NCBI RefSeq assembly: GCF_009914755.1
Contig: NC_060932.1
Reading direction: 5' to 3' (one strand)
Source of the DNA: the human T2T-CHM13v2.0 reference genome, Homo sapiens
DNA length: 64,000 nt
The notes under the pieces were generated by a model. It saw nothing but the letters and a program-made list of their open reading frames with translations, was not told the DNA's origin and made no database searches. Shown in pieces: positions 13,029 through 19,444 of the stretch. Every line of letters starts with the position of its first letter. Position 1 is the stretch's first letter. A program made the position numbers and the translations under genes.

Positions 13029-13204
13029 GGTAACTTAGAGATTAATAAATACTTCTTTTAAAAATAGGAGTTATTTGTATTTTAGTTTTTAATTCAACCT
13101 AAACCTTCTCTCTGTAGGGTTTCACAATTTTAAAAAAGTATGTCTTTTAATTTAACAAAATGCAAACATGTATCTCTGCTAGTGGAGAAGGTAGTGAAAA
13201 TCTT

Positions 13205-16200
13205 TTTTTTTTTAAAGTTTTTTTTTCTTTTATTATTATACTTTAAGTTTTAGGGTACATGTGCACATTGTGCAGGTTAGTTACATATCTATACATGTGC
13301 CATGCTGGTGCGCTGCACCCACTAACTTGTCATCTAGCATTAGGTATATCTCCTAATGCTATCCCTCCCCCTTCCCCCCACCCCACAACAGTCCCCAGAG
13401 TGTGATGTTCCCCTTCCTGTGTCCATGTGATCTCATTGTTCAATTCCCACCTATGAGTGAGAATATACGGTGTTTGGTTTTTTGTTCTTGCGATAGTTTA
13501 CTGAGAATGATGATTTCCAATTTCATCCATGTTCCTACAAAGGACATGAACTCATCATTTTTTATGGCTGCATAGTATTCCATGGTGTATATGTGCCACA
13601 TTTTCTTAATCCAGTCTATCATTTTTGGACATGTGGGTTGGTTCCAAGTCTTTGCTATTGTGAATAATGCCGCAATAAACATACGTGTGCATGTGTCTTT
13701 ATAGCAGCATGATTTATAGTCCTTTGGGTATATACCCAGTAATGGGATGGCTGGGTCAAATGGTATTTCTAGTTCTAGATCCCTGAGGAATCGCCACACT
13801 GACTTCCACAATGGTTGAACTAGTTCACAGTCCCACCAACAGTGTAAAAGTGTTCCTATTTCTCCACATCCTCTCCAGCACCTGTTGTTTCCTGACTTTT
13901 TAATGATTGCCATTCTAACTGGTGTGAGATGGTATCTCATTGTGGTTTTGATTTGCATTTCTCTGATGGCCAGTGATGATGAGCATTTTTTCATGTGTTT
14001 TTTAGCTGCATAAATGTCTTCTTTTGAGAAGTGTCTGTTCATGTCCTTCGCCCACTTTTTGATGGGGTTGTTTTTTTCTTGTAAATTTGTTTGAGTTCAT
14101 TGTAGATTCTGGATATTAGCCCTTTGTCAGATGAGTAGGTTGCGAAAATTTTCTCCCATTCTGTAGGTTGCCTGTTCACTCTGATGGTAGTTTCTTTTGC
14201 TGTGCAGAAGCTCTTTAGTTTAATTAGATCCCATTTGTCAATTTTGGCTTTTGTTGCCATTGCTTTTGGTGTTTTAGACATGAAGGCCTTGCCCATGCCT
14301 ATGTCCTGAATGGTAATGCCTAGGTTTTCTTCTAGGGTTTTTATGGTTTTAGGTCTAACGTTTAAGTCTTTAATCCATCTTGAATTAATTTTTGTATAAG
14401 GTGTAAGGAAGGGATCCAGTTTCAGCCTTCTACATATGACTAGCCAATTTTCCCAGCACCATTTATTAAATAGGGAATCCTTTCCCCATTGCTTGTTTTT
14501 CTCAGGTTTGTCAAAGATCAGATAGTTGTAGATATGCGGCATTATTTCTAAGGGCTCTGTTCTGTTCCATTGATCTATATCTCTGTTTTGGTACCAGTAC
14601 CATGCTGTTTTGGTTACTGTAGCCTTGTAGTATAGTTTGAAGTCAGGTAGTGTGATGCCTCCAGCTTTGTTCTTTTGGCTTAGGATTGACTTGGCGATGC
14701 GGGCTCTTTTTTGGTTCCATATGAACTTTAAAGTAGTTTTTTCCAATTCTGTGAAGAAAGTCATTGGTAGCTTGATGGGGATGGCATTGAATCTGTAAAT
14801 TACCTTGGGCAGTATGGCCTTTTTCACGATATTGATTCTTCCTACCCATGAGCATGGAATGTTCTTCCATTTGTTTGTATCCTCTTCTATTTTCTTGAGC
14901 AGGGGTTTGTAGTTCTCCTTGAAGAGGTCCTTCACATCCCTTGTAAGTTGGATTCCTAGGTATTTTATTCTCTTTGAAGCAATTGTGAATGGGAGTTCAC
15001 TCATGATTTGGCTCTCTGTTTGTCTGTTGTTGGTGTATAAGAATGCTTGTGATTTTTGCACATTGATTTTGTATCCTGAAACTTTGCTGAAGTTGCTTAT
15101 CAGCTTAAGGAGATTTTGGGCTAAGACAATGGGGTTTTCTAGATATACAATCATGTCATCAGCAGACAGGGACAATTTGACTTCCTCTTTTTCTAATTGA
15201 ATACCCTTGATTTACTTCTCCTGCCTGATTGCCCTGGCCAGAACTTCCAACACTATGTTGAATAGGAGTGGTGAGAGAGGGCATCCCTGTCTTGTGCCAG
15301 TTTTCAAAGGGAATGCTTCCAGTTTTTGCCCATTCAGTATGATATTGGCTGTGGGTTTGTCATAGATAGCTCTTATTATTTTGAAATATATCCCATCAAT
15401 ACCTAATTTATTGAGAGTTTTTAGCATGAAGGGTGGTTGAATTTTGTCAAAGGCCTTTTCTGCATCTAATGAGATAATCATGTGGTTTTTGTCTTTGGCT
15501 CTGTTTATATGCTGGATTACATTTATTGATTTGCATATATTGAACCAGCCTTGCATCCCAGGGATGAAGCCCACTTGATCATGGTGGATAAGCTTTTTGA
15601 TGTGCTGCTGGATTCGGTTTGCCAGTATTTTATTGAGGATTTTTGCATCAATGTTCATCAAGGATATTGGTCTAAAATTCTCTTTTTTGGTTGTGTCTCT
15701 GCCCGGCTTTGGTATCAGAATGATGCTGGCCTCATAAAATGAGTTAGGGAGGATTCCCTCTTTTTCTATTGATTGGAATAGTTTCAGAAGGAATGGTACC
15801 AGTTCCTCCTTGTACCTCTGGTAGAATTAGGCTGTGAATCTGTCTGGTCCTGGACTCTTTTTGGTTGGTAAGCTATTGATTATTGCCACAATTTCAGATC
15901 CTGTTATTGGTCTATTCAGAGATTCAACTTCTTCCTGGTTTAGTCCTGGGAGAGTGTATGTGTCGAGGAATTTATCCATTTCTTCTAGATTTTCTAGTTT
16001 ATTTGCGTAGAGGTGTTTGTAGTATTCTCGGATGGTAGTTTGTATTTCTGTGGGATCGGTGTTGATATCCCCTTTATCATTTTTTATTGCATCTATTTGA
16101 TTCTTCTCTCTTTTTTTCTTTATTAGTCTTGCTAGCGGTCTATCAATTTTGTTGATCCTTTCAAAAAACCAGCTCCTGGATTCGTTAATTTTTTGAAGGG

Positions 16201-19200: not shown

Positions 19201-19246
19201 GAGCTGTAGACCGGAGCTGTTCCTATTCGGCCATCTTGGCTCCTCC
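13205..19246 (-). mobile_element. Full-length LINE-1, L1PA3-like, ORF1 and ORF2 disrupted
   Basis: 5'UTR of ~904 nt from ggaggagccaagatggcc; ORF1 stop at codon 205 plus frameshift; ORF2 in several pieces, RT motif FADD changed to SADD; 3'UTR gcattaggaga; 9-bp TSD gaaaatctt at 13196-13204 and 19247-19255. Confidence 0.95.
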
Positions 19247-19444
19247 GAAAATCTTCTCTTGAGAAAAGTGAATGGACAAATAAAGATTTCTCATTTCCGA
19301 CAAAAGAAAATAACCAGCATTGATTTGCTATTTCTGTTGTTATGAGTGCTTCCAGGTGGTTGTCTTTGGATCTGCTCTGTTCCTGTGCACCTCTTCTTGG
19401 AATATAAATTTCTGAGCCTCAATGTGCCCTGATGCCGTTCCTTT

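What the first reader, a model, noticed from the sequence alone, without database searches (positions are those of the whole stretch)
13196..19255. Full-length sense L1 inside the chimeric retrocopy: possible HERV-H-driven L1 mobilising its 7.5-kb host transcript in cis
Seen: the L1 has its own 9-bp TSD and lies in the same orientation within the non-viral terminal exon, giving nested TSD pairs. Model A: the L1 later landed in a ~1.5-kb retrocopy. Model B: the parent locus already held this L1 in the terminal exon, so an LTR7-initiated spliced RNA carried the L1 and was retrotransposed by its proteins, a combined ~535-nt 5' and ~950-nt 3' transduction. Known: L1 proteins prefer their encoding RNA. 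The small target and matching orientation favour B, which would mean an ERV promoter licensing L1 retrotransposition. Upstream AUGs in the leader are a caveat for ORF1 translation.
Basis: inference. Interest (0 to 1): 0.85.

Follow-up and report, generated by a model that had tools for sequence, protein, structure and literature searches.

The report
L1 copied with HERV-H-led host transcript
A 7.5-kb insertion in a human STK3 intron is a reverse-transcribed copy of a spliced chromosome-18 RNA that began in an endogenous retrovirus and already carried a then-intact L1 jumping gene, a second and older example of a route published once before.

Summary
A full-length L1 (minus strand, 13205-19246) with a 9-bp duplication lies inside a 7.5-kb retrocopy (12252-19781). 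The retrocopy has its own 15-bp duplication, a short A tail and a TT/AAAA target.

The parent terminal exon on contig 18 (27473539-27480618) holds the same L1 at the same place, with the same AAGATTTTC duplication and the same interrupted tail. It is colinear with the window over 7.09 kb at 96.4% identity. The parent has an AG acceptor and no A tail. Exons 3 and 4 lie 44 kb upstream of it.

L1 and non-L1 parts have diverged equally (3.31% vs 2.87%). All eight reading-frame breaks are private to one copy, so both L1 reading frames were open when the RNA was copied.

Mobilisation by the L1's own proteins is therefore likely (about 0.7) but not shown. Initiation in the LTR7 is also inferred. The copy starts in U5, and contig 18 now keeps only solo LTR7s.

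No sibling copy exists in this genome. The mechanism is already in print for another locus (PMC6425141), so this is a new member of a known kind.

The parts
12231..12245 (-). Outer target-site duplication, 3' copy (sense AAAAGTTAAAAACAG; 12 bp certain, up to 15 bp counting A's shared with the tail)
   Evidence: Exact match to 19782-19796; the next bases differ
12246..12251 (-). A tail of the 7.5-kb retrocopy (6-9 A); absent at the parent locus
   Evidence: Contig 18 reads TAATAAgattg at this point instead of A's
12252..13195 (-). 3' transduced segment: the distal 944 nt of the parent terminal exon, with AATAAA at 12278-12283, 26 nt before the cleavage site
   Evidence: 95% match to contig 18 and only 2 genomic copies; 29 substitutions in 941 nt
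13196..13204 (-). Inner (L1) target-site duplication, 3' copy, AAGATTTTC
   Evidence: the same sequence at the same junction on contig 18
13205..19246 (-). Full-length L1 with interrupted tail A9-CTTT-A9. ORF1 remnant 18342-17327 and ORF2 remnant 17263-13440, both broken in this copy
   Evidence: 96.7% identical to the contig-18 L1
19247..19255 (-). Inner (L1) target-site duplication, 5' copy
19256..19314 (-). First 59 nt of the parent terminal exon (exon 5), upstream of the L1
   Evidence: Identical to contig 18 from 27473539, which is preceded there by a pyrimidine tract and AG
19315..19363 (-). Exon 4 (49 nt) = contig 18 27429666-27429714
   Evidence: 2 of 49 mismatches; ag|...|gtgagc at the parent
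19364..19444 (-). Exon 3 (81 nt) = contig 18 27428977-27429057
   Evidence: 3 of 81 mismatches; ag|...|gtaaat at the parent
19445..19599 (-). Exon 2 (155 nt): an internal HERV-H exon
   Evidence: 92-95% match to many HERV-H copies (40 of 1086 candidates scored); ag|...|gtaagc in the contig-14 copy
19600..19781 (-). Exon 1 (182 nt): last 36 nt of LTR7 U5 (19746-19781), primer-binding site and HERV-H leader up to the donor AAATCCG|gt
   Evidence: 93-96% match to many HERV-H copies (40 of 2397 candidates scored); donor seen; position within the LTR
19782..19796 (-). Outer target-site duplication, 5' copy; target GGGTT/AAAAGTT

Best explanation
The window holds one retrotransposition product, not two nested events at this site. 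An L1 first inserted, in sense, 59 nt into the roughly 1-kb terminal exon of a non-coding gene on contig 18 (chr18). This created the AAGATTTTC duplication there. Soon afterwards a five-exon RNA was made: HERV-H U5 and leader, a HERV-H internal exon, two small host exons, then the L1-bearing terminal exon. This RNA read through the L1's own poly(A) signal and ended at the exon's AATAAA. The 7.5-kb RNA was then inserted into an STK3 intron by L1 target-primed reverse transcription (TT/AAAA target, 15-bp duplication, A tail). Seen from the L1, the window copy is an offspring of the chr18 L1 with a spliced 526-nt 5' transduction and a 944-nt 3' transduction.

Shown: the parent-copy relation, the splicing, the L1's presence before copying, and open ORF1 and ORF2 at the time of copying.

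Inferred: (a) the L1's own ORF1p and ORF2p copied their encoding RNA in cis (about 0.7); (b) the RNA began at the 5' LTR7 of a HERV-H provirus, with about 70 nt lost at the 5' end; (c) that provirus sat at one of two solo LTR7s 2.2 and 3.9 kb upstream of exon 3 and has since collapsed to a solo LTR; (d) the event dates to roughly 10-16 million years ago.
For: Window 12246-19315 is colinear with contig 18 27480624-27473538 at 96.4% over 7,094 columns. On contig 18 the L1 has the same AAGATTTTC on both sides and the same A9-CTT-A13 tail. The parent has ...ctattcctag| before the exon and no A tail after GTTTTTATTT. Exons 3 and 4 map 44 kb upstream on contig 18. All junctions are GT-AG.

Divergence in the L1 is 199/6016 (3.31%). 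In the non-L1 parts it is 29/1010 (2.87%; 29/941 = 3.08% in the 3' flank alone). Fisher p = 0.56.

All 8 frame breaks are private: 6 in the window copy and 2 on contig 18. At each, the other copy and 3 of 3 outgroup L1s keep the open state. The contig-18 ORF2 is still open for 1,275 codons with full-length Exo_endo_phos and RVT_1 matches.

The two copies share only 12 derived sites against 3 outgroups, while other pairs share 3-13. So the L1 was young when it was copied.

The retrocopy is near full length at 7.5 kb. From recalled knowledge, L1 proteins prefer their own RNA, and full-length products are usual for L1 and unusual for processed pseudogenes. A published precedent with the same architecture exists (PMC6425141).
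Against: Nothing in the sequence tells cis from trans copying. The leader adds three upstream AUGs with uORFs of 26, 9 and 23 codons ahead of the 904-nt L1 5' UTR.

The copy starts 36 nt before the LTR7 end. It lacks R and has no untemplated G, so promoter use is not shown directly.

No HERV-H internal sequence was found on contig 18 from 27302001 to 27462000. The driving provirus is therefore hypothetical, or it lies further upstream. The 36-nt U5 match to the two solo LTRs (34/36 and 33/36) does not identify either one.

No further offspring carry this 3' flank, so there is no sign that the chr18 L1 was otherwise active.

Dating rests on recalled rates.
Confidence: 0.7

Rival explanations
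1. Trans mobilisation. The 7.5-kb RNA was an ordinary cellular transcript copied as a processed pseudogene by proteins from another active L1, and the embedded L1 was a passenger.
For: The hallmarks (duplication, A tail, loss of introns) are the same for trans products. Three added upstream AUGs and a 1.44-kb leader could hamper ORF1 translation. No other offspring of the chr18 L1 carry the 3' flank.
Against: Both frames were open at the time and the L1 was young. From recalled knowledge, cis preference is strong and a near-complete 7.5-kb trans product would be unusually long. The authors of the published parallel read it as L1 5' transduction.
Confidence: 0.25
2. Model A. A roughly 1.5-kb retrocopy landed first and the L1 inserted into it later at this site.
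For: The L1 has its own duplication inside the retrocopy.
Against: The parent exon on contig 18 has the same L1, the same duplication, the same odd tail and colinear flanks. L1 and flank have diverged equally.
Confidence: 0.01
3. DNA-level duplication or gene conversion between chr18 and chr8 produced the shared L1 and flanks.
For: 7.09 kb of colinear similarity.
Against: The window copy has spliced exons whose parents lie 44 kb apart on contig 18. It ends at the poly(A) site with an A tail and is flanked by a 15-bp duplication at a TT/AAAA site.
Confidence: 0.01
4. The RNA was not started by the LTR7 promoter. It began upstream of, or at a cryptic site within, the provirus, so the retrovirus supplied exons but not the licence.
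For: The copy begins in U5, about 70 nt downstream of where the TATAAA predicts a start, with no cap-derived G. The provirus itself is missing today.
Against: 5' truncation is common in L1 products (recalled). The leader donor and internal exon are the usual HERV-H splice sites. LTR7-driven chimeric RNAs are well known, and the precedent starts in LTR7Y.
Confidence: 0.15

Closest known systems
Ref_Chr1_p31.1a L1-Ta with a 539-nt 5' transduction (Salvador-Palomeque et al. 2019, PMC6425141; passages read)
   Same: An RNA reported to start in a HERV-H 5' LTR, carrying LTR and internal HERV-H sequence, spliced through upstream exons to a site next to a donor L1, then retrotransposed with the L1. 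It also carries a 3' transduction. The 5' extension is almost the same length (539 vs 526-535 nt).
   Different: The loci differ (chr11 to chr1, against chr18 to chr8). That case is a young L1-Ta; this one is an older L1, broken today in the window copy. That case has an untemplated G at a mapped LTR7Y start and a provirus still present 126 kb upstream. Here the copy starts in U5 and only solo LTRs remain. There two upstream exons were spliced together and to a site adjacent to the L1. Here four exons precede the terminal exon, and the 3' transduction is 944 nt.
L1 3' transduction (Moran 1999; Goodier 2000; Pickeral 2000; cited, papers themselves not read)
   Same: Read-through of the L1 poly(A) signal to a downstream AATAAA. 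There is an internal A tract before the transduced flank, and the flank maps uniquely next to the donor L1.
   Different: Here it is combined with a long spliced 5' extension. The paper puts 5' transductions at under 0.1% of L1-Ta insertions.
Processed pseudogenes and retrocopies of spliced HERV-H or HERV-W RNAs made in trans by L1 (HERV-W: PMC5537654, search listing only; HERV-H spliced retrocopies: recalled, Goodchild et al. 1995)
   Same: Intron loss, A tail and duplication at an L1 endonuclease site; HERV-H leader spliced at its usual donor.
   Different: The template here encoded an L1 with both frames open, so self-copying was possible. The product is also far longer than typical retrocopies.
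SVA 5' transduction of spliced MAST2 exons (recalled; no call)
   Same: An upstream promoter and spliced host exons carried at the 5' end of a retrotransposon copy.
   Different: SVA is non-autonomous and always copied in trans. No retroviral promoter is involved.

Membership tests
L1 endonuclease-dependent target-primed reverse transcription product | Target-site duplication flanking the whole insert | tested here: met
   15-bp exact repeat at 12231-12245 and 19782-19796
L1 endonuclease-dependent target-primed reverse transcription product | A tail at the 3' end, absent from the source locus | tested here: met
   6-9 A at 12243-12251; contig 18 has no such run there
L1 endonuclease-dependent target-primed reverse transcription product | Insertion at a TT/AAAA-like site | tested here: met
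   Pre-insertion site is gggtt/AAAAGTT; the consensus itself is recalled
L1 offspring with 5' and 3' transduction | Both flanks map uniquely next to a donor L1 that has the same element at the same junctions | tested here: met
L1 offspring with 5' and 3' transduction | Internal A tract, then a downstream poly(A) signal used at the donor | tested here: met
   The A9-CTTT-A9 tail is retained; AATAAA lies 26 nt before the cleavage site in both loci
L1 offspring with 5' and 3' transduction | Donor L1 able to encode its proteins at the time | tested here: met
   8 of 8 frame breaks are private to one copy, and 3 of 3 outgroups keep the open state. Missense effects and actual activity were not tested.
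L1 offspring with 5' and 3' transduction | Copying by the element's own proteins (cis) | not testable with these tools
   Sequence hallmarks are the same for cis and trans products
HERV-H LTR7-initiated chimeric transcript | Use of the HERV-H leader donor and splicing to host exons at canonical sites | tested here: met
   AAATCCG|gtaagt, and all four junctions GT-AG
HERV-H LTR7-initiated chimeric transcript | 5' end at the LTR7 start site (R present; cap-derived G) | tested here: not met
   The copy starts 36 nt before the LTR end. TATAAA lies 135 nt and ATTAAA 64 nt before the end in two LTR7 copies. There is no extra G. This is compatible with 5' truncation.
HERV-H LTR7-initiated chimeric transcript | Provirus present upstream at the parent locus | tested here: not met
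   Only two solo LTR7s (duplications ATATT and CCACC) and an inverted fragment at 27424646-27426761. No internal sequence was found in 27302001-27462000. Further upstream was not examined.
Ordinary processed pseudogene (trans product) | Template RNA does not itself encode working L1 proteins | tested here: not met
   Both L1 frames are inferred open in the template

The most novel reading that the evidence does not exclude
HERV-H LTR7 promoters have served repeatedly as stand-in promoters for L1 in the hominid germ line or early embryo. There are at least two independent cases, separated by roughly ten million years. In each, an L1 lying in a downstream exon of a pluripotency-expressed retroviral transcript was copied in cis, bypassing silencing aimed at its own 5' UTR. 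The window copy also preserves leader and internal exons of a chr18 provirus that has since collapsed to a solo LTR.
Probability: 0.25. Interest if true: 0.6.

Novelty: new member of a known kind. Interest (0 to 1): 0.45.

Why it matters
L1 sequence inside host transcripts is usually dismissed as passive and irrelevant to mobility. Here an exon-embedded L1 with open frames was carried to a new site on a spliced RNA led by an endogenous retrovirus. Together with the single published case, this suggests the route is recurrent rather than a one-off. That gives some weight to the published speculation that HERV-H activity in early embryos can lead to L1 mobilisation. It also gives a dated snapshot of a chr18 transcript and of a provirus that no longer exists there. 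Finally, it shows that flanking unique sequence can trace donor-offspring pairs among old L1s.

Tried and rejected
Model A and DNA duplication were rejected.

Sibling copies. The 940-nt 3' flank gave 3 of 3 candidates scored: itself, contig 18, and a 74% match of about 100 nt on contig 7. The exon 3-4 query gave only itself and the two contig-18 exons. The 28-nt exon 1-2 splice junction has 1 match in the genome, itself, at up to 3 mismatches.

Search for the parental provirus. None was found in contig 18 27302001-27462000, using 5.1 kb of a contig-14 HERV-H and the retrocopy's own HERV-H part as queries. A 44-nt leader pattern gave 343 matches of which only 100 were listed. None of the listed matches with at most 1 mismatch is on contig 18, and 243 were unseen. 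A provirus further upstream is therefore not excluded.

Selection on the still-open chr18 ORF2 was rejected. Its lineage shows 7 synonymous, 35 non-synonymous and 0 stop changes. The chance of no stop is about 0.17.

Subfamily naming was not possible without a reference library. The 904-nt 5' UTR and the divergence suggest L1PA2/L1PA3 age, by recall only.

Literature searches found no description of this chr18-to-chr8 event. Supplementary tables were not opened.

Full report
**What is in the window**

The L1 lies on the minus strand at 13205-19246. Its 5' end reads GGAGGAGCCAAGATGG and its tail is A9-CTTT-A9. Exact 9-bp copies of AAGATTTTC (sense) flank it at 13196-13204 and 19247-19255.

It sits in the same orientation inside a larger insert at 12252-19781. 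That insert ends in a short A run and is flanked by a 15-bp repeat at 12231-12245 and 19782-19796. The pre-insertion site reads gggtt/AAAAGTT. This fits the L1 endonuclease preference, which I recall rather than tested.

The window L1 is broken today. ORF1 has one stop and a 1-nt deletion. ORF2 has three stops and a 4-nt deletion.

**The 5' part is a spliced RNA copy**

- Window 19600-19781 matches the end of LTR7 U5, the primer-binding site and the HERV-H leader of many proviruses at 93-96% (40 of 2397 candidates scored).
- Window 19445-19599 matches an internal HERV-H exon about 1.9 kb further into those proviruses at 92-95% (40 of 1086 scored).
- Window 19364-19444 maps to contig 18 at 27428977-27429057 (3 of 81 mismatches), and 19315-19363 maps to 27429666-27429714 (2 of 49 mismatches).
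- Every junction falls on a canonical site: AAATCCG|gtaagt, ag|...|gtaagc, ag|...|gtaaat, ag|...|gtgagc, and cctag| before the last exon.

**The decisive test**

A BLAST of window 11500-20500 against contig 18 gave one colinear alignment. Window 12246-19315 aligns to 27480624-27473538 at 96.4% over 7,094 columns.

The parent terminal exon therefore already contains the L1. It has the same AAGATTTTC on both sides and the same interrupted tail, A9-CTT-A13 against A9-CTTT-A11, counting the two A's of the duplication. On contig 18 the exon is preceded by a pyrimidine tract and AG. After GTTTTTATTT, 26 nt past AATAAA, the sequence runs on as TAATAAgattg with no A tail.

Contig 18 is thus the source and the window is the copy. 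Model A, duplication and conversion are excluded.

Divergence agrees. The global alignment has 229 substitutions and 7 indels. The L1 shows 199/6016 (3.31%) and the non-L1 parts 29/1010 (2.87%). Fisher p = 0.56.

**State of the L1 when it was copied**

The contig-18 ORF2 is still open for 1,275 codons. It has full-length Exo_endo_phos and RVT_1 matches. Its ORF1 has one CGA-to-TGA stop and a 1-nt deletion.

I aligned both copies with three natural L1s of the same age: the window's second L1, one from contig 12 and one from contig 2. At all 8 frame breaks, the other copy and 3 of 3 outgroups keep the open state. By parsimony, both frames were open in the template RNA.

The two copies are no closer to each other (96.69%) than to the unrelated copies (96.57-97.22%). 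They share only 12 derived sites, while other pairs share 3-13. So the L1 had been on chr18 only briefly.

The open ORF2 on contig 18 is not under selection. Its lineage shows 7 synonymous and 35 non-synonymous changes. The chance of no stop among 42 random changes is about 0.17. I make no claim that it is active.

**What remains inference**

- *Cis against trans.* Sequence cannot decide this. Open frames, a young element and a near-complete 7.5-kb product favour cis, given the recalled cis preference of L1 proteins. Three added upstream AUGs, with uORFs of 26, 9 and 23 codons, are a mild caveat. I put cis at about 0.7.
- *Promoter.* In two LTR7 copies, TATAAA lies 135 nt and ATTAAA 64 nt before the LTR end. 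The retrocopy begins 36 nt before the end, near the expected R/U5 border, with no extra G. That means either about 70 nt of 5' truncation or another start site.
- *Provirus.* Contig 18 has no HERV-H interior between 27302001 and 27462000. It has two sense-oriented solo LTR7s, each with its own 5-bp duplication (ATATT and CCACC), 3.9 and 2.2 kb upstream of exon 3. An inverted LTR fragment lies between them. The simplest reading is that a provirus at one of them collapsed by LTR-LTR recombination after the copy was made. In that case the window preserves its leader and internal exon. A provirus more than 171 kb upstream of the L1 is not excluded (one search was only partly listed).
- *Date.* 3.2% pairwise divergence is about the human-orangutan level by recalled figures, so roughly 10-16 million years.

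**Siblings**

None were found in this genome.

**Comparison with what is known**

Salvador-Palomeque et al. 2019 (PMC6425141; abstract and passages read) describe Ref_Chr1_p31.1a. This L1-Ta has a 539-nt 5' transduction. It begins at a HERV-H LTR7Y start site about 126 kb upstream of its chr11 progenitor L1. It carries LTR and internal HERV-H sequence, and two upstream exons are spliced to a site beside the L1. It is preceded by an untemplated G.

The same paper states that 5' transductions accompany under 0.1% of L1-Ta insertions. [quoted passage not shown]

The present case has the same architecture at a different locus, and it is older. It lacks the cap signature and a surviving provirus, and it adds a 944-nt 3' transduction and four spliced junctions. 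It is therefore a new member of a known kind.

My searches (passages were not relevant) found no account of this chr18-to-chr8 event. Supplements were not read.

**Verdict**

- Observation: confirmed.
- Model B: supported.
- Cis mobilisation and LTR7 licensing: likely but unproven.
- Interest: moderate, as a second independent example and as a fossil of a lost provirus.

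Noticed in passing
L029:3588-7415 (contig 18 27475588-27479415): The donor L1 on chr18 still has an uninterrupted 1,275-codon ORF2 with full endonuclease and reverse-transcriptase domain matches, although its ORF1 is broken. Its substitution pattern (7 synonymous, 35 non-synonymous) looks neutral, so the open frame is probably chance.
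   Followed up: yes
L036:2646-4761 (contig 18 27424646-27426761): Two sense-oriented solo LTR7s, each with its own 5-bp duplication (ATATT; CCACC), with an inverted partial LTR7 between them, just upstream of exon 3 of the parent gene. No HERV-H interior was found within 27302001-27462000.
   Followed up: partly
window 43577-49719 (+): A second near-full-length L1 of the same age class, 96.6% identical to the finding's L1. It was used here as an outgroup. Its own flanks and duplication were not examined.
   Followed up: partly
window 18837-20036: The RefSeq 'enhancer' feature covers the first ~410 nt of the L1 5' UTR, the whole HERV-H/host-exon 5' transduction and ~240 nt of flank. The regulatory call may therefore rest on L1 promoter or HERV-H leader sequence.
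   Followed up: no
window 12950-13030: A (TG)n/(GA)n microsatellite inside the 3' transduced exon differs from the chr18 parent by a 14-nt length change. This is the largest indel between the two copies.
   Followed up: no
window 13440-17263 (-): All three ORF2 nonsense changes private to the window copy are G-to-T transversions. The window lineage also has more private changes than the chr18 lineage (92 vs 66 across the L1). This could be reverse-transcription error or local mutation bias.
   Followed up: no
window 12252-19781 (-): The whole 7.5-kb insert, with a sense L1, lies in the same orientation as STK3 inside the intron between exons at 8788-8913 and 25160-25297. Sense L1s in introns are usually thought to be disfavoured (recalled).
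   Followed up: no
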